A model generated the notes under the pieces. The model saw only the letters and a list, made by a program, of their open reading frames with translations, made no database searches and was not told the origin of the DNA. The translations under genes and the position numbers were made by a program. 64,000 bases of DNA from Escherichia coli (GTDB lineage: Bacteria > Pseudomonadota > Gammaproteobacteria > Enterobacterales > Enterobacteriaceae), in assembly GCF_013315695.1 (NCBI RefSeq), contig NZ_CP054353.1; one strand, written 5' to 3'. Positions 56,150-62,545 of this stretch are shown here, piece by piece; the stretch's first letter is position 1; every line of letters begins with the position of its first letter.

Positions 56150-56240
56150 TAGACTGGCCCCCTGAATCTCCAGACAACCAGTATCACTTATTTAAGTGAT
56201 AGTCTTAATACTAGTTTTTAGACTAGTCATTGGAGAGCAG

Positions 56241-56606
56241 ATGATTGATGTCTTAGGACCGGAGAAACGCAGACGGCGTACCACACAGGAAAAGATCGCA
56301 ATTGTTCAGCAGAGCTTTGAACCGGGGATGACGGTCTCCCTCGTTGCCCGGCAACATGGTGTAGCAGCCAGCCAGTTATTTCTCTGGCGTAAGCAATACC
56401 AGGAAGGAAGTCTTACTGCTGTCGCCGCCGGAGAACAGGTTGTTCCTGCCTCTGAACTTGCTGCCGCCATGAAGCAGATTAAAGAACTCCAGCGCCTGCT
56501 CGGCAAGAAAACGATGGAAAATGAACTCCTCAAAGAAGCCGTTGAATATGGACGGGCAAAAAAGTGGATAGCGCACGCGCCCTTATTGCCCGGGGATGGG
56601 GAGTAA
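56241..56606 (+). CDS. insC: IS2 InsC (OrfA)
   Basis: [56 protein letters not shown]... Confidence 0.93.
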
Positions 56607-57469
56607 GCTTAGTCAGCCGTTGTCTCCGGGTGTCGCGTGCGCAGTTGCACGTCATTCTCAGACGAACCGATGACTGGATGGATGGCCGCCGCAGTCGTCA
56701 CACTGATGATACGGATGTGCTTCTCCGTATACACCATGTTATCGGAGAGCTGCCCACGTATGGTTATCGTCGGGTATGGGCGCTGCTTCGCAGACAGGCA
56801 GAACTTGATGGTATGCCTGCGATCAATGCCAAACGTGTTTACCGGATCATGCGCCAGAATGCGCTGTTGCTTGAGCGAAAACCTGCTGTACCGCCATCGA
56901 AACGGGCACATACAGGCAGAGTGGCCGTGAAAGAAAGCAATCAGCGATGGTGCTCTGACGGGTTCGAGTTCTGCTGTGATAACGGAGAGAGACTGCGTGT
57001 CACGTTCGCGCTGGACTGCAGTGATCGTGAGGCACTGCACTGGGCGGTCACTACCGGCGGCTTCAACAGTGAAACAGTACAGGACGTCATGCTGGGAGCG
57101 GTGGAACGCCGCTTCGGCAACGATCTTCCGTCGTCTCCAGTGGAGTGGCTGACGGATAATGGTTCATGCTACCGGGCTAATGAAACACGCCAGTTCGCCC
57201 GGATGTTGGGACTTGAACCGAAGAACACGGCGGTGCGGAGTCCGGAGAGTAACGGAATAGCAGAGAGCTTCGTGAAAACGATAAAGCGTGACTACATCAG
57301 TATCATGCCCAAACCAGACGGGTTAACGGCAGCAAAGAACCTTGCAGAGGCGTTCGAGCATTATAACGAATGGCATCCGCATAGTGCGCTGGGTTATCGC
57401 TCGCCACGGGAATATCTGCGGCAGCGGGCTTGTAATGGGTTAAGTGATAACAGATGTCTGGAAATATAG
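56564..57469 (+). CDS. insD: IS2 transposase InsD (OrfB, expressed by -1 frameshift from insC)
   Basis: 301-aa ORF overlapping the insC 3' end in the -1 frame; DDE integrase-type sequence. Confidence 0.93.
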
Positions 57470-57480
57470 GGGCAAATCCA

Positions 57481-58125
57481 AAATGCCGACTGACTGTCTG
57501 TGCGCATCCAATGACTAAAGGGAACATTAAGCGTAAAAGCGAGTAAATGATCCCGATCGTTTTGCCATATATTATTGGAATAGCTGTAATTCAGCGAAGT
57601 CGTAATATCACTAAACGGCACATTTAATCCAAATGATATTTGCTGGTCGCTGCGTGACGTGTTCCAGTAACTTTGGCGACTGGCACTGAAAAATGTCGTA
57701 CCGTAATTTCCAAGCTGCTGAGAGATGCTTATTTGTTCCTGACCACGCTTACTGTAGAACAGATTAAAATAATCAATAAATTGTGTCTGCTCATTGCTGT
57801 CTCCGGTAGGAGGCTTGACGGTGTAACCACTCATTCGACTGTAGGCACTGTCGGATAAGTTATAAAAACCTTGCGTAGAATAGCGATATCCTGCGACCTG
57901 GATATTGGTTCCCGTCTGGTAGAAGGATTTGCTGTAGACGGATTTAATCGATTGCCCGCTGTGACGGGTGCCATCTGCAAGTGTCGTATTGGCCTGCGTG
58001 ATATCGAAAGAAAAGGCACCAAAAAGTCCTAAATCTTTACCAATACCAAGGTTGAAGGCCTGATAATCTTCTGCAATTTGCATTCCGCCATAAGGCGTCC
58101 AGTTTCCTTCCAGTCCATGCATCAA
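57481..58125 (-). pseudogene. ydeT: Fimbrial usher internal fragment (ydeT-like); N-terminal part of the usher absent
   Basis: ORF 57394..58125 is usher-like until it runs into IS2; together with 55350..56149 about 480 codons, roughly half of a full usher; upstream is AT-rich non-coding. Confidence 0.65.
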
Positions 58126-58506
58126 GTCATTCTGTTATTGCTTATAAAACAAGAATCATTCTTGATGGGATATTGCCCTGAGAATATAGTTTCCAGGGTT
58201 ATTACATTTCACGAAGAACGATAATATCTTTAAATTACAAGGACACCTAATCACAACAAGTTTATTGCAGCACTTGTTGTAGAGAGTATTTGCAAAGACA
58301 TTTTATGTCGCTAAATAACATGACGATTTCATTATGCATGTTATTTATAAACCGTGACTAAACAGAATATTATTGCGAACAAGGGAAGTGTCAGGAAAGG
58401 TCAAGAGCGACCAATGGTTTATATGGCTATAAATCATTAGCTATAGTTAATGTTTGCCTGGTGTAACTAACACGGAATTGCTCTAAACAGATAAGTGCAG
58501 GGTTTA

Positions 58507-58761
58507 TTAAAGCTGACCGACAGACTTTCTTAACCTGGTAATATCTCTCTTAGGTGACTCTCCAAACATCCGCGAATATTCCCGACTGAAATGGGATAAG
58601 CTTTCGTAACCGACAACATAGGCTGCAGTGGTGACATCGTAATGTTCATTCAGCATCAGTCGCCTGGCTTCATTGAGGCGTAGCCATTTCTGATACCGGA
58701 GTGGACTCATTCCCGCAAGCTGTATGAAGTGTTGATGGAAAGAGGGGGTGTTCATTTGCAC
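58507..58761 (-). pseudogene. yneL: AraC-family regulator C-terminal HTH fragment (yneL-like)
   Basis: 84-aa ORF with AraC-type second HTH (...YVVGYESLSHFSREYSRMFGESPKR...); no intact N-terminal domain upstream. Confidence 0.6.
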
Positions 58762-59150
58762 GCGGTTTGCCAGCCTGACTCTTCAACGCAGGGAAGATGC
58801 GGCAAACGGCAAACCTGCATACCAGCCAGCCTATATCCGGTATGCACAGGCCAATCATGAAAGAGGAGAGGCTTTATGTTCTGGAACCCTGAAGTAATAA
58901 CGACGACCGGAAAATCGCTTCGCATCACTCAAATCACATTTAACATAATATACATTATGCGCACCAACATAAACCAAGGAAGAATCCAGTCGTTGGCGGT
59001 CATGATTGTCGTGCTCATTAATAACGACCAAACCCCATATTAACTGCCGCATCAAAAACGCCATGATCCGCGCGATGCCTGGGCCTCCATCTGATTCATG
59101 AAAGTGACAACGGTCTGGCATAACGGCTGGCTAACCACTCCGGTGCATAC

Positions 59151-61119
59151 TTAAAGGTGTGCGCGCCGTTGGCTAACTTCGTTAAGTTCGCCGGTCACGT
59201 TTTTTAGCGTTAACAGACCGTCACTAGCAATATTTCCTCTGCCTAACCCCTGCGTATTGTCGAGGCTGACTTCCGCATTTGGGCTAATGCTGGTTAACGC
59301 ATTGTAGCGTGCATTAAGCCCCTCGATAGCCAGTGTTCCCCCTGTAACATTCAGGTTTCCGCCACCTGTCAGTTCGCCCTGACTGATCCCACCTTTATTC
59401 ACCGTCAGCGAACCTTCTTTGAACAAAACAGTCGAACCCATCAGCCCGGTGAATGTCTCCACCGTCTGGGCCGATCCATTAAGATCGACGATGGCCGCGT
59501 TGCTGATGTTCAGTTCCCGGGTGTTGCCCAGCGCGCCATCCGCATCGGTACGTAATGTCCCCATCTGAACATAGGTTGCCCCCTGATAGTCGTTCTGACC
59601 GTTGGAAAGCGAAACCTGTCGCACCGTATTGATTGCCAGATCCCCTTCACCACCGATTTTTGCCGACATATCGGCCGTTGCGCCATAGGCTCCGCCATGT
59701 TCGGCTAACGTCAGCTTTTGCCCTCCATGGATGTTCAGCGCTTTCAGCCCATAGTTAACGTACAAACCATCACCTGGTGCGGTCGTGAGGCGGAATCCAT
59801 AATCACCCTCGGCGACCACCGTTCCGTTTTGCGCAATGTGTAACGTTTTGTCCGCTTCCACCTCGTCGCCCTGTAAATCACGTAACGTTAATGAGCCACC
59901 CGACCCAATAACCGTTTGCGCCTTCACCAGTTGAACGCCGACATGGCTATCATCGTGTTCCAGCAAATTGAGCGTCGTCAGAGGGTTATTCGCCATGGGA
60001 TCATTCCACGGTTTAGGCACGTCGATAAGCACGTCGCCCGTCCCGTTTACCTGATAGTTACGGCCTTTCCAGGTGTAGTCACCCGCGCCGACAACCAGCG
60101 TATCGACGCTGATATATCCCTCTGCAAGCGTCGCAGCAGGAATATCCGTATCGAAAATGAGCGTACCGCCATTCATGGCCAGTCCACCAATGGATTGCTC
60201 TCCCACTTTTACCGATGTGGTATTTTCACTGTCAGACTGCAACATCGCGTGAGTAAGCGCAGCGGTGTTGTCGCGTTCCAGAGTGAAGGTACTGTCTTTC
60301 AGTTGGGCAACACCGGCGAATTCAGTCCCTGTTGCATGGGTAAAGCCAAATATCTTGTCGGAGGATGACAGCTGCACTCGCATCAAGCCATCGCCTTTGA
60401 GCGCATTGGTCAGCGTGTAATCTCCTGCGCTGTTCGTTGATGCGAGAATGTCGAGCGTACCGGGGCTTGCAATGGTGACTTCACTCGAACCCATGCCTGT
60501 TACCCCATCTGCCGTATGTGACGCAATAGTCAGGAGGCCGTCATTGACCAGCGTTTTACCGCTATAAGTATTCCCTGCATTGAACACCGTATGGCCTGCA
60601 TCATGCATCACTTTTCCGTCTTTATCGTCACCCGTAATCAGCATATCGACCTGGTAGCCGGCATCACTGTTATTGGTATGATTAAAGACAAAAACGCCTT
60701 CGCCAAGACCAAACTCCACTTTCGTCGCATTGGTAATAAACCCGGCATCTGCCGCCACCTCACCGTGAGCAGCACCAATGTTTAGCGTTCCTACAGCAGG
60801 CTCAAAAACACCTAAGTAAACTTCTCCACCTTCGACATTCAGCGTGCCGTTATTCGTCAGGGTTAACGTACCTGTGCCAGTCGTCCCTACGTTCATATTG
60901 AATGTTTCAAGAAGAGAGTTCTGCCCATCCACCCGCACGTCGCCCTTACTTTTGTCATTCAGAGCTATCTGTGTATCACGCGCTTTAACTATACCTCCGG
61001 TGGTAATATTCAGTTCACCCGTACCTAATACACCGACCTGTAGCAATTGGGCGTTAGTAGATGACGTTTTTAAATTCCAGAGACTATCCGTTGAAATATT
61101 AACTATCCCCTTACCGGAG
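59151..61119 (-). pseudogene. AIDA-I-like autotransporter adhesin passenger domain, C-proximal part (no beta-barrel translocator follows)
   Basis: ORF 59151..61046 (631 aa), Gly/Thr/Asn-rich beta-helix-type repeats (TGTGTLTLTNNGTLNVEGG...); ends ...EVSQRRAHL without a barrel domain. Confidence 0.7.
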
Positions 61120-62545
61120 TAATGCCGATCAGTTAAGGATCAGTTGACCGATCCAGTGGCTGTGTAAGAATCCGGAAACGCTCACTTGTTTCCGGATTTT
61201 TTTATGCACATTGGACAGGCTCTTGATCTGGTATCCCGTTACGATTCTCTGCGTAACCCACTGACTTCTCTGGGGGATTACCTCGACCCCGAACTCATCT
61301 CTCGTTGCCTTGCCGAATCAGGTACTGTAACGCTACGCAAGCGCCGTCTTCCCCTCGAAATGATGGTCTGGTGTATTGTTGGCATGGCGCTTGAGCGTAA
61401 AGAACCTCTTCACCAGATTGTGAATCGCCTGGACATCATGCTGCCGGGCAATCGCCCCTTCGTTGCCCCCAGTGCCGTTATTCAGGCCCGCCAGCGCCTG
61501 GGAAGTGAGGCTGTCCGCCGCGTGTTCACGAAAACAGCGCAGCTCTGGCATAACGCCACGCCGCATCCGCACTGGTGCGGCCTGACCCTGCTGGCCATCG
61601 ATGGTGTGTTCTGGCGCACACCGGATACACCAGAGAACGATGCAGCCTTCCCCCGCCAGACACATGCCGGGAACCCGGCGCTCTACCCGCAGGTCAAAAT
61701 GGTCTGCCAGATGGAACTGACCAGCCATCTGCTGACGGCTGCAGCCTTCGGCACGATGAAGAACAGCGAAAATGAGCTTGCTGAGCAACTTATAGAACAA
61801 ACCGGCGATAACACTCTGACGTTAATGGATAAAGGTTATTACTCACTGGGACTGTTAAATGCCTGGAGCCTGGCGGGAGAACACCGCCACTGGATGATAC
61901 CTCTCAGAAAGGGAGCGCAATATGAAGAGATCAGAAAACTGGGTAAAGGCGATCATCTGGTGAAGCTGAAAACCAGCCCGCAGGCACGAAAAAAGTGGCC
62001 GGGACTGGGAAATGAAGTGACAGCCCGCCTGCTGACCGTGACGCGCAAAGGAAAAGTCTGCCATCTGCTGACGTCGATGACGGACGCCATGCGCTTCCCC
62101 GGAGGAGAAATGGCGGATCTGTACAGTCATCGCTGGGAAATCGAACTGGGATACAGGGAGATAAAACAGACGATGCAACTGAGCAGGCTGACGCTGAGAA
62201 GTAAAAAACCGGAGCTTGTGGAGCAAGAGCTGTGGGGTGTCTTACTGGCTTATAATCTGGTGAGATATCAGATGATTAAAATGGCGGAACATCTGAAAGG
62301 TTACTGGCCGAATCAACTGAGTTTCTCAGAATCATGCGGAATGGTGATGAGAATGCTGATGACATTGCAGGGCGCTTCACCGGGACGTATACCGGAGCTG
62401 ATGCGCGATCTTGCAAGTATGGGACAACTTGTGAAATTACCGACAAGAAGGGAAAGGGCCTTCCCGAGAGTGGTAAAGGAGAGGCCCTGGAAATACCCCA
62501 CAGCCCCGAAAAAGAGCCAGTCAGTTGCTTAACTGACTGGCATTA
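61120..62545 (+). mobile_element. IS4 copy 2 (1426 bp) with perfect 13-bp target-site duplication
   Basis: Same terminal repeats as copy 1; ccccttaccggag at 61107..61119 and 62546..62558. Confidence 0.95.
61204..62532 (+). CDS. insG: IS4 transposase
   Basis: Translation identical to copy 1. Confidence 0.93.

What the first reader, a model, noticed from the sequence alone, without database searches (positions are those of the whole stretch)
58876..59043. Unannotated 55-codon ORF with a strong Shine-Dalgarno in the yneL/autotransporter spacer
aagaggagaggcttt-ATG at 58876 opens a 55-aa frame (MFWNPEVITTTGKSLRITQITFNIIYIMRTNINQGRIQSLAVMIVVLINNDQTPY), which is below the ORF-track cutoff. It lies in a region that otherwise looks like pseudogene debris and overlaps an antisense 88-aa ORF; it could be a small protein or chance.
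Basis: seen in the sequence. Interest (0 to 1): 0.2.

Follow-up and report, generated by a model that had tools for sequence, protein, structure and literature searches.

The report
Chance ORF lying over E. coli dif
The 55-codon frame is real but is almost certainly a chance reading frame across dif, the well-known 28-bp site where the XerC/XerD recombinases separate dimeric E. coli chromosomes, so it is ordinary and already explained.

Summary
The ORF (58876-59043, +), its AGGAG 7 nt upstream and the antisense 88-aa ORF are all present as described. The frame is not conserved. The ATG is AAG in K-12- and O157-type strains, which also carry in-frame stops. Phylogroup-F-type strains have a +1 frameshift. 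ST131-type strains diverge after codon 23. The ORF DNA is at least 99.5% identical in only 5 of 5,426 complete E. coli genomes, and no listed genome annotates a gene there. Shuffled copies of the window give about 4 ATG-ORFs of at least 50 aa with an SD-like motif.

What is conserved is a DNA site. Positions 58938-58965 (- strand) match the experimentally defined E. coli dif site 28/28. They sit in the same yneL-hipA spacer as in MG1655. The cumulative G-C skew of the window peaks at 58769. ORF codons 22-30 (FNIIYIMRT) are simply dif read in the only open + frame. The same 28-mer is identical in at least 118 Enterobacterales species with unrelated flanks and no shared ORF. The 3' half of the ORF overlies the XerC-side flank, where K-12 has its Topo IV cleavage hot spot. 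Next to it lie hipA deletion scars, a yneL pseudogene and an IS-broken autotransporter.

Verdict: known feature, spurious ORF, low interest.

The parts
58938..58965 (-). dif, the 28-bp XerC/XerD chromosome-dimer resolution site (5'-GGTGCGCATAATGTATATTATGTTAAAT-3' on the - strand)
   Evidence: It matches 28/28, is the only match in the window at up to 3 mismatches, and none of 100 shuffles gave a match. The sequence is given as the experimentally confirmed E. coli dif in PMC3025954 and PMC3603311. It is present once in all 11 E. coli loci held at that point. It is invariant in the 9-strain alignment while both flanks vary.
58955..58965 (-). XerC-binding arm (GGTGCGCATAA on the - strand)
   Evidence: This follows from the position within the dif match. 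The assignment of this arm to XerC is from established knowledge (Blakely/Sherratt work, recalled from memory) and was not tested here.
58949..58954 (-). 6-bp central region (TGTATA), where strand exchange occurs
   Evidence: This follows from the position within the dif match. Its role is from established knowledge.
58938..58948 (-). XerD-binding arm (TTATGTTAAAT on the - strand)
   Evidence: This follows from the position within the dif match. Its role is from established knowledge.
58966..59005 (.). XerC-side flank of dif. By homology with K-12 it should hold the XerC-dependent Topo IV cleavage hot spot, predicted near 58998 and 59003.
   Evidence: The window is identical to K-12 from +4 to +45 after dif. 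[quoted passage not shown] The first 30 bp or so of this flank are partly conserved across Enterobacterales. Cleavage in this strain is inferred, not shown.
58876..59043 (+). The 55-codon ORF of the finding, judged to be a chance frame. Codon 21 (third base) to codon 30 are dif. The stop codon lies in the hipA deletion scar.
   Evidence: There is no Pfam hit. No feature is annotated under any of the matches listed.
58861..58871 (+). Purine-rich SD-like run AAGAGGAGAGG (AGGAG at 58864-58868)
   Evidence: The run GAAAGAGGAGA (58859-58869) is invariant in all nine aligned strains, including the six that have AAG instead of ATG, so it is not tied to a start codon.
58855..59121 (-). Antisense 88-aa ORF. 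It is a chimera of an out-of-frame hipA N-terminal remnant, in-frame HipA residues 267-283 (HESDGGPGIARIMAFLM, with H in place of Y267), and read-through across the spacer and dif.
   Evidence: There is no Pfam hit.
59047..59099 (-). hipA internal remnant (codons 267-283)
   Evidence: blastn gives 96% identity to K-12 hipA and tblastn gives 16/17 identical residues.
59100..59185 (-). hipA N-terminal remnant (about codons 14-44). PGAP calls it a 'hypothetical protein' pseudogene in the identical strain.
   Evidence: blastn gives 98.8% identity and tblastn gives 29/31 identical residues. The PGAP feature at L001 3800-3886 equals window 59099-59185.
58507..58773 (-). yneL-type AraC-family pseudogene (C-terminal HTH only)
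   Evidence: Pfam HTH_18 at 1.6e-20. PGAP annotates it as a pseudogene missing its N-terminus. Homology to longer relatives ends at 58773.
59172..61118 (-). Autotransporter pseudogene (passenger fragment), fused to the hipA scar and cut by IS4 at its other end
   Evidence: PGAP annotation of the 100% identical strain MSB1_4I and the ORF list.

Best explanation
The stretch is the E. coli chromosome dimer resolution site dif together with its immediate flanks. The 55-codon ORF is a chance open frame laid over it.

Mechanism, from established knowledge of the Xer system and not tested here: XerC and XerD each bind one 11-bp arm of dif (58955-58965 and 58938-58948) around the 6-bp centre. When homologous recombination has joined the two sister chromosomes into a dimer, the FtsK translocase at the division septum is steered by KOPS motifs and brings the two dif copies together. 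FtsK activates XerD to make the first strand exchange, and XerC completes it, which yields monomers. XerC bound at dif also recruits Topo IV, which in K-12 cleaves about 33-38 bp beyond the XerC arm. dif also serves as the attachment site for Xer-exploiting mobile elements.

Shown here: the exact site, its synteny, its position at the GC-skew switch, its invariance against variable flanks, and foreign DNA joined at or beside dif in other strains.

The ORF exists only because of three accidents. (i) Only one of the three + frames is free of stops through dif. (ii) A 1-nt indel plus a substitution created TTTATG from TTAAG in one lineage of left flanks. (iii) The hipA deletion scar supplies a TAA.
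For: 1. dif matches 28/28, once in the window and in none of 100 shuffles. The sequence is confirmed as E. coli dif in two papers.
2. It is in the same position as in MG1655, in the yneL-hipA spacer at NC_000913.3 1590750-1590777, with no gene annotated there. The hipA locus is described as adjacent to dif in PMC5638614.
3. Cumulative G-C peaks at 58769. Skew is mostly positive to the left and -0.09 to -0.10 to the right. dif is known as the skew inversion point.
4. In nine strains the 28 bp are invariant, while the bases immediately to the left are the most variable of the stretch.
5. Frame status: the window has 55 aa. 23AR0762 is frameshifted to 48 aa. MG1655, 2012C-4606 and 2013C_3678 have AAG and a TGA at codon 21. 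Strain 48, O157 and 2010C-3347 have AAG and a TAG at codon 38. A20 is replaced after dif by filamentous-prophage DNA. ST131-type strains stop at codon 32.
6. The ATG-type start region is present in 827 of 5,426 genomes. The whole ORF DNA is at least 99.5% identical in 5 genomes, and the next-best group has a 1-nt insertion.
7. The 112 database ORFs that hit the peptide have lengths from 31 to 97 aa and unrelated N- or C-termini joined at FNIIYIMRT. All that carry a name are called hypothetical or uncharacterised in E. coli.
8. At least 118 Enterobacterales species carry the identical 28-mer. The frame is open for a median of 13 codons before it and 17.5 after it.
9. About 4 ORFs with an SD-like motif are expected by chance per window.
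10. There is no Pfam or Rfam hit, no terminator, and no promoter-like site within 400 nt upstream.
Against: The SD-like motif has near-ideal spacing, and in this strain the frame is intact, so translation cannot be excluded from sequence alone. Gene callers did-58-aa versions in some assemblies. The codon-position counts are underpowered and mixed. Third-position changes are 9 of 16 against O157-type strains but 6 of 16 against the 2012C-4606 type and 7 of 17 against MG1655. KOPS are too few in this window to show convergence: 3 on the + strand and 1 on the - strand to the left of dif, and none in the 5 kb to the right. Activity of dif in this particular strain was not and cannot be tested here.
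Confidence: 0.93

Rival explanations
1. The ORF is a young, lineage-restricted small protein (55 aa, hydrophobic C-terminal half) translated from the SD-like site, with dif embedded in its coding sequence.
For: The frame is intact with AGGAG 7 nt before the ATG. ATG-type starts occur in 827 genomes. Versions of 57-58 aa were called by gene finders in some assemblies.
Against: The start is absent in about 85% of genomes. In-frame stops, frameshifts or replaced C-termini occur in every other lineage sampled. The exact ORF region is at least 99.5% identical in only 5 genomes. The stop codon comes from a deletion scar. No promoter-like site is nearby and no family hit was found. The ORF-plus-SD combination is expected by chance. 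No PGAP annotation appears in any listed row.
Confidence: 0.04
2. The functional unit is on the other strand: the 88-aa antisense ORF (58855-59121), or a longer decayed gene such as the missing N-terminus of the yneL AraC regulator, so the + ORF is the shadow of a real gene fragment.
For: The 88-aa ORF exists and contains 16/17 identical in-frame HipA residues. Some E. coli assemblies yield fused ORFs joining the - strand 58-aa frame to yneL (P0114-P0116).
Against: The HipA pieces lie outside the + ORF, at 59047 and beyond, and are two non-contiguous scraps in different frames. Real AraC homologues with N-terminal extensions (P0119, P0160, P0170) align only up to 58773 and give nothing significant between 58774 and 59046. 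No - strand ORF has a Pfam hit. Any such gene would have to read through dif, which is flanked by unrelated sequence in other genera.
Confidence: 0.02
3. The conserved DNA is a leftover of a mobile element (an IMEX or prophage attachment scar) rather than the host's active dif.
For: Foreign DNA is joined next to or within dif in other strains: a filamentous prophage in A20 and an island in ST131-type genomes. Genomes can carry up to 7 matching places.
Against: The window has a single perfect 28-mer, flanked on both sides by the same host sequence as in K-12 (yneL side and hipA side). It sits at the skew switch. No phage genes are adjacent in the window.
Confidence: 0.01

Closest known systems
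dif of E. coli K-12 MG1655 (XerCD/FtsK chromosome dimer resolution site, yneL-hipA spacer)
   Same: The 28-bp sequence is identical. The left neighbour (yneL pseudogene) is the same. The right flank is the same for about 75 bp. It lies at the GC-skew inversion.
   Different: Here hipA is reduced to two scraps, and hipB and the autotransporter C-terminal part are deleted, so dif lies about 80 bp from a deletion scar. The left flank is about 90% identical and carries the indel that creates the ATG.
Topo IV cleavage hot spot at dif (Hojgaard 1999; El Sayyed 2016; Sutormin 2023)
   Same: The window is identical to K-12 from +4 to +45 beyond the XerC arm, which covers the mapped +33 and +38 positions.
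   Different: Cleavage was mapped only in K-12 derivatives. It is inferred here, not shown.
Attachment sites of Xer-exploiting mobile elements (IMEX, e.g. CTX-phi-type filamentous phages)
   Same: In strain A20 a prophage with Zot-like and secretin genes begins immediately after the same dif. Database ORFs show unrelated sequences joined at the dif-encoded peptide.
   Different: The window itself carries no integrated element at dif. It is the empty host site.
Plasmid dimer resolution sites cer and psi
   Same: They use the same recombinases and the same core architecture of two 11-bp arms and a centre (established knowledge).
   Different: cer and psi need about 180 bp of accessory sequence and PepA/ArgR or ArcA, and they are FtsK-independent. 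None of that was looked for or seen here. The site here is chromosomal and is an exact dif.
Validated E. coli small proteins found by ribosome profiling
   Same: Similar length (55 aa), an SD-like motif, and an intergenic location.
   Different: Validated small proteins keep their start codon and frame across E. coli strains. This frame does not. MG1655 has no ATG here and no gene annotated.

Membership tests
dif (XerC/XerD chromosomal dimer resolution site) | 28-bp sequence with two 11-bp recombinase arms around a 6-bp centre, matching the experimentally defined E. coli site | tested here: met
   28/28 at 58938-58965 on the - strand, with 0 matches in 100 shuffles. The reference sequence comes from PMC3025954 and PMC3603311.
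dif (XerC/XerD chromosomal dimer resolution site) | Location at the replication terminus, at the GC-skew inversion | tested here: met
   The cumulative G-C maximum is at 58769, 169 bp from dif. Skew changes sign across it.
dif (XerC/XerD chromosomal dimer resolution site) | Convergence of KOPS (GGGNAGGG) polarity on the site | tested here: inconclusive
   Only 4 KOPS are in the window. To the left of dif there are 3 on the + strand and 1 on the - strand, and there are none in the 5 kb to the right. This is consistent but too sparse to decide.
dif (XerC/XerD chromosomal dimer resolution site) | Orthologous position to the characterised K-12 site | tested here: met
   It lies in the yneL-hipA spacer, as in MG1655 at 1590750-1590777.
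dif (XerC/XerD chromosomal dimer resolution site) | Conserved as a DNA site independently of flanking genes | tested here: met
   It is invariant in 9 E. coli strains with variable flanks. It is identical in at least 118 Enterobacterales species with unrelated flanks.
dif (XerC/XerD chromosomal dimer resolution site) | Bound and recombined by XerC/XerD in an FtsK-dependent way; deletion gives a dimer-resolution defect | not testable with these tools
   This needs biochemistry or genetics. xerC, xerD and ftsK lie outside the window.
Protein-coding small gene | Open frame with a start codon and a ribosome-binding site | tested here: met
   ATG at 58876, AGGAG 7 nt upstream, 55 codons. About 4 such ORFs are expected by chance per window.
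Protein-coding small gene | Start codon and reading frame conserved in related genomes | tested here: not met
   K-12- and O157-type strains have AAG instead of ATG plus in-frame stops. 23AR0762 has a frameshift. ST131-type strains are truncated at codon 32. The ATG type occurs in 827 of 5,426 genomes. The whole ORF is at least 99.5% identical in 5 genomes.
Protein-coding small gene | Substitution pattern of purifying selection (excess of third-position or synonymous changes) | tested here: inconclusive
   There are 7-17 substitutions per comparison. Third-position share ranges from 6/16 to 9/16, and synonymous to nonsynonymous counts range from 6:10 to 9:7.
Protein-coding small gene | Similarity to a known protein family, or an annotated gene in reference genomes | tested here: not met
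   No Pfam hit at E up to 1. The only hits are E. coli hypothetical ORFs with variable ends. No feature is annotated in MG1655 or in any listed RefSeq genome.
Protein-coding small gene | Evidence of translation | not testable with these tools
   No expression data are available for a strain that carries the ATG. K-12 lacks it.

The most novel reading that the evidence does not exclude
The roughly 30 bp beyond the XerC arm (window 58966-58995, inside the ORF) may be a functional extension of dif that is conserved across the whole order at fixed spacing. The anchored consensus is AA.AT......AGGyNrAATCTG.CGTTT. It could be the platform on which XerC positions Topo IV for its atypical cleavage at +33 and +38. 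Such an extension would define an 'extended dif' that Xer-exploiting phages may also copy. I do not know whether this flank conservation has already been reported.
Probability: 0.3. Interest if true: 0.4.

Novelty: already known. Interest (0 to 1): 0.1.

Why it matters
For annotation, this ORF should not be called as a gene. The locus should instead carry a dif feature, which RefSeq/PGAP leaves unannotated in every genome listed here. Public protein collections hold more than 100 clusters of 'hypothetical proteins' that share only FNIIYIMRT, the translation of dif. These are gene-caller artefacts, and some are chimeric because foreign DNA is joined at dif. Recognising the site also places the window: it spans the replication terminus and skew switch of an IS-rich E. 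coli strain that has lost the dif-adjacent hipBA toxin-antitoxin locus. There is nothing new about the biology of dif itself. The only possibly new item is the partial conservation of the XerC-side flank.

Tried and rejected
- Pfam scan of the + ORF and four - strand ORFs: only the yneL HTH domain hit.
- Rfam at E up to 1 over 57500-60000: nothing.
- Promoter and terminator scan of 58400-59300: one weak promoter-like site 430 nt upstream, no more than in shuffles, and no terminator.
- Search for a Ter (Tus-binding) core in the window: none.
- KOPS and Chi counts: too sparse to be informative. Chi is 5 on the + strand and 2 on the - strand to the left of dif, and none to the right.
- Codon-position and synonymous/nonsynonymous counts: underpowered and mixed.
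- The hypothesis that the spacer is the decayed N-terminus of the AraC-type yneL gene: homologues with N-terminal extensions align only to 58773.
- The hypothesis that the ORF's opposite strand is a hipA fragment: the hipA scraps begin at 59047, just outside the ORF.
- A perfect or near-perfect dif in the ST131-type junction loci: none within 3 mismatches. Only the first 7 bases of the XerD arm remain at the junction.
- Three run_python calls failed because locus L002 was not exported to /data. The sequence was pasted in instead.

Full report
**Observation.** ATG at 58876 opens a 55-codon frame that ends with TAA at 59041-59043 and translates to MFWNPEVITTTGKSLRITQITFNIIYIMRTNINQGRIQSLAVMIVVLINNDQTPY. 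AGGAG lies at 58864-58868, 7 nt before the ATG. An 88-aa ORF runs antisense at 58855-59121. Such an ORF is not unusual. The window has 208 ATG-ORFs of at least 50 aa, 14 of them with an SD-like 5-mer at suitable spacing. Block-shuffled copies of the window give about 151 such ORFs, of which 4.1 +/- 2.1 have an SD-like 5-mer.

**Where we are.** The 1-kb stretch around the ORF is 100% identical to E. coli strain MSB1_4I and is found, in parts, in nearly all 5,426 complete E. coli genomes. PGAP annotates only pseudogenes around it in the identical strain:
- an IS2-interrupted fimbrial usher;
- an AraC-type HTH fragment (yneL type; Pfam HTH_18 at 1.6e-20);
- a short 'hypothetical' fragment;
- a truncated autotransporter that ends at an IS4.

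In K-12-like genomes the yneL fragment is followed by hipA, hipB and the full autotransporter. Aligning the window to K-12 gives this map:

| Window | Corresponds to |
|---|---|
| 58299-59040 | yneL plus the yneL-hipA spacer (86% identity with gaps) |
| 59047-59099 | hipA codons 267-283 |
| 59100-59185 | hipA codons about 14-44 |
| beyond 59185 | autotransporter passenger |

So hipB, most of hipA and the autotransporter's C-terminal part are deleted. The candidate ORF lies entirely in what is intergenic spacer downstream of hipA in K-12, and its stop codon falls in the deletion scar.

**What is really there.** Partial matches in other genomes broke at about 58938-58944, and some genomes had several matching places. 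That led me to recognise ATTTAACATAATATACATTATGCGCACC as the reverse complement of dif. A pattern search confirms a 28/28 match at 58938-58965 on the - strand. It is the only match in the window at up to 3 mismatches, and none of 100 shuffles gave a match. The reference sequence GGTGCGCATAATGTATATTATGTTAAAT is given as the experimentally confirmed E. coli dif in PMC3025954 and as the known dif in PMC3603311.

All 11 E. coli loci held at that point contain it once. In MG1655 it is at NC_000913.3 1590750-1590777, 76 bp downstream of hipA, with nothing annotated between yneL and hipA. PMC5638614 describes hipA as adjacent to dif, and dif as the point where GC skew, KOPS and Chi polarity invert.

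In the window the cumulative G-C count peaks at 58769. Skew is mostly positive to the left and -0.09 to -0.10 to the right. KOPS are too few to add much: 3 on the + strand and 1 on the - strand to the left of dif, none to the right.

In the ORF's frame, dif occupies the third base of codon 21 through codon 30 and reads FNIIYIMRT. The other two + frames have stops inside dif, so any + strand ORF crossing dif must use this frame.

**Is the frame conserved?** No. In a nine-strain alignment the 28 bp are invariant, while the bases just to the left of dif are the most variable of the stretch. Frame status by strain:

| Strain or type | State of the frame |
|---|---|
| Window | ATG, 55 aa |
| 23AR0762 | ATG, but a 1-nt insertion shifts the frame after codon 42 (48 aa) |
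| MG1655, 2012C-4606, 2013C_3678 | AAG instead of ATG, and TGA at codon 21 |
| Strain 48, O157:H7, 2010C-3347 | AAG, and TAG at codon 38 |
| A20 | ATG, but the sequence after dif is replaced by a filamentous prophage with Zot-like and secretin genes |
| ST131-type genomes | Left flank joined, 7 bases into the XerD arm, to an unrelated island; the frame stops at codon 32 |

A 42-nt probe across the SD-like motif and ATG finds the ATG-type left flank in 827 of 5,426 genomes. The whole ORF DNA is 100% identical in 3 genomes and 99.5% identical in 2. The next group (98.4-97.3% identity, including IAI39 and ST648 types) matches over 184 nt against the 183-nt query, which implies a 1-nt indel, as in 23AR0762. 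None of the rows listed carries an annotated feature under the match.

The peptide hits 112 predicted proteins in the 5.8-billion-sequence collection. Every one that carries a source name is a 'hypothetical' or 'uncharacterised' protein, and all but one of those names say E. coli. Their lengths run from 31 to 97 aa, and many have unrelated N- or C-termini joined at FNIIYIMRT. That is what recombination at a site produces, not a protein family.

Beyond E. coli, the exact 28-mer is present in at least 120 species-representative genomes across Enterobacterales. In 118 usable loci the dif frame is open for a median of 13 codons before the site and 17.5 codons after it, and the flanks are unrelated.

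Codon-position and synonymous/nonsynonymous counts are too small to be informative. There is no Pfam or Rfam hit, no terminator, and no nearby promoter-like site.

**Opposite strand.** The 88-aa antisense ORF is a chimera. It has seven residues from an out-of-frame hipA N-terminal scrap, then HESDGGPGIARIMAFLM, which matches in-frame HipA residues 267-283 at 16 of 17 positions, then read-through across the spacer and dif. The yneL fragment's homology to AraC-family relatives with longer N-termini ends sharply at 58773. Nothing significant aligns between 58774 and 59046. So inside the ORF the opposite strand is not a recognisable gene fragment. The first one is.

**Mechanism.** The following is established knowledge and was not tested here. 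XerC and XerD bind the two arms of dif. FtsK, oriented by KOPS, aligns the two dif copies of a chromosome dimer at the septum and activates XerD for the first strand exchange, and XerC completes the exchange.

XerC at dif also targets Topo IV. In K-12 the XerC box and the region downstream of it are essential for cleavage (PMC4865107). [quoted passage not shown] The window is identical to K-12 from +4 to +45 beyond the XerC arm. The homologous positions, about 58998 and 59003, fall in the 3' half of the ORF. This is inferred, not shown.

**Side observation.** I anchored 114 species loci on dif without gaps. Columns outside the 28-mer are conserved on the XerC side:
- +1 is A in 77% of loci;
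- +2 is A in 75%;
- +4 is a purine in 98%;
- +5 is T in 81%;
- there is a block at +12 to +29, with A at +18 in 84%.

On the XerD side only -5 (A in 89%) stands out. In 104 of these loci with 150 bp on each side, mean pairwise identity is 0.40 for +1 to +30, 0.29 for +31 to +60, and at background (0.25-0.26) beyond that. It is 0.32 for -30 to -1. The A20 prophage flank carries a similar motif.

This could reflect a functional extension of dif, such as a Topo IV platform, or flanks derived from mobile elements. I did not control for phylogeny, and I do not know whether this has been published.

**Verdict.** The real feature is dif, which is already known. Interest is low.

Noticed in passing
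window 58966-58995; loci L013-L132: The flank beyond the XerC arm of dif is partly conserved at fixed spacing across Enterobacterales. +1 and +2 are A, +4 is a purine in 98% of loci, +5 is T, and there is a block at +12 to +29 of roughly AGGyNrAATCTG.CGTTT. Mean pairwise identity is 0.40 against a background of 0.25. The XerD-side flank is barely conserved. The conserved flank lies between dif and the K-12 Topo IV cleavage sites at +33 and +38.
   Followed up: partly
window 59047-59185 (- strand): The hipBA toxin-antitoxin locus that sits next to dif in K-12 is reduced here to two hipA scraps (codons 267-283 and about 14-44). hipB and the autotransporter C-terminal part are gone. In K-12, degradation of hipBA after terminus breakage is reported to arrest growth (PMC5638614), so this strain lacks that link. 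About 142 genomes share at least 80% of the 1-kb arrangement.
   Followed up: partly
L003 3138-5667 (E. coli A20, NZ_CP028755.1): A filamentous-phage-like element with a zonular occludens toxin domain protein and a secretin N-terminal domain protein begins immediately after a perfect dif. This fits a Xer-exploiting prophage integrated at dif.
   Followed up: partly
L012 6001-12105; L133 and L134 (ST131-type and related genomes): The ATG-type left flank is joined to an island of redox and other enzyme genes after only the first 7 bases of the XerD arm (ATTTAAC). The island encodes carboxymuconolactone decarboxylase, quinol monooxygenase and, in L012, aldo/keto reductases among others. No dif within 3 mismatches lies nearby. 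The intact dif with the right flank is presumably at another of the matching places in these genomes (the FDAARGOS_1279 record behind L012 has 3).
   Followed up: partly
proteins P0001-P0112: Public protein collections contain more than 100 clusters of E. coli 'hypothetical proteins' whose only shared part is FNIIYIMRT, the translation of dif. Several are chimeras with unrelated termini, for example P0110, P0112, P0085 and P0090. They look like gene-caller artefacts across a recombination site.
   Followed up: partly
L059 (JARKOR010000214.1, MAG labelled Candidatus Nanosynbacter) and L054 (Pseudomonas sp. GD04091): Contigs assigned to non-enterobacterial taxa carry the exact enterobacterial dif. 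The 30 bases to the left of dif in L059 are identical to the K-12 left flank, and its right flank resembles the A20 prophage flank. L059 therefore looks like E. coli DNA mis-binned into a Saccharibacteria MAG.
   Followed up: no
window 56196-57469 and 61186-62532: An IS2-type element (IS3 family, two overlapping ORFs) interrupts the fimbrial usher gene, and an IS4 transposase gene interrupts the autotransporter. The terminus region of this strain is heavily IS-eroded.
   Followed up: no
NZ_CP026206.1 119039-119071 (E. coli ECONIH5 plasmid, hits H30/H70): A 191-kb plasmid carries a 33-nt stretch 100% identical to dif plus 5 flanking bases (window 58938-58970). It may be a plasmid-borne dif copy. 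The context was not examined.
   Followed up: no
window 1-64000: No Tus-binding Ter core (GNRNGTTGTAACKA) occurs anywhere in the window, although TerC is reported to lie within 20 kb of dif in E. coli (PMC3603311). The window extends only 5 kb to the right of dif, so TerC may lie beyond its end.
   Followed up: partly
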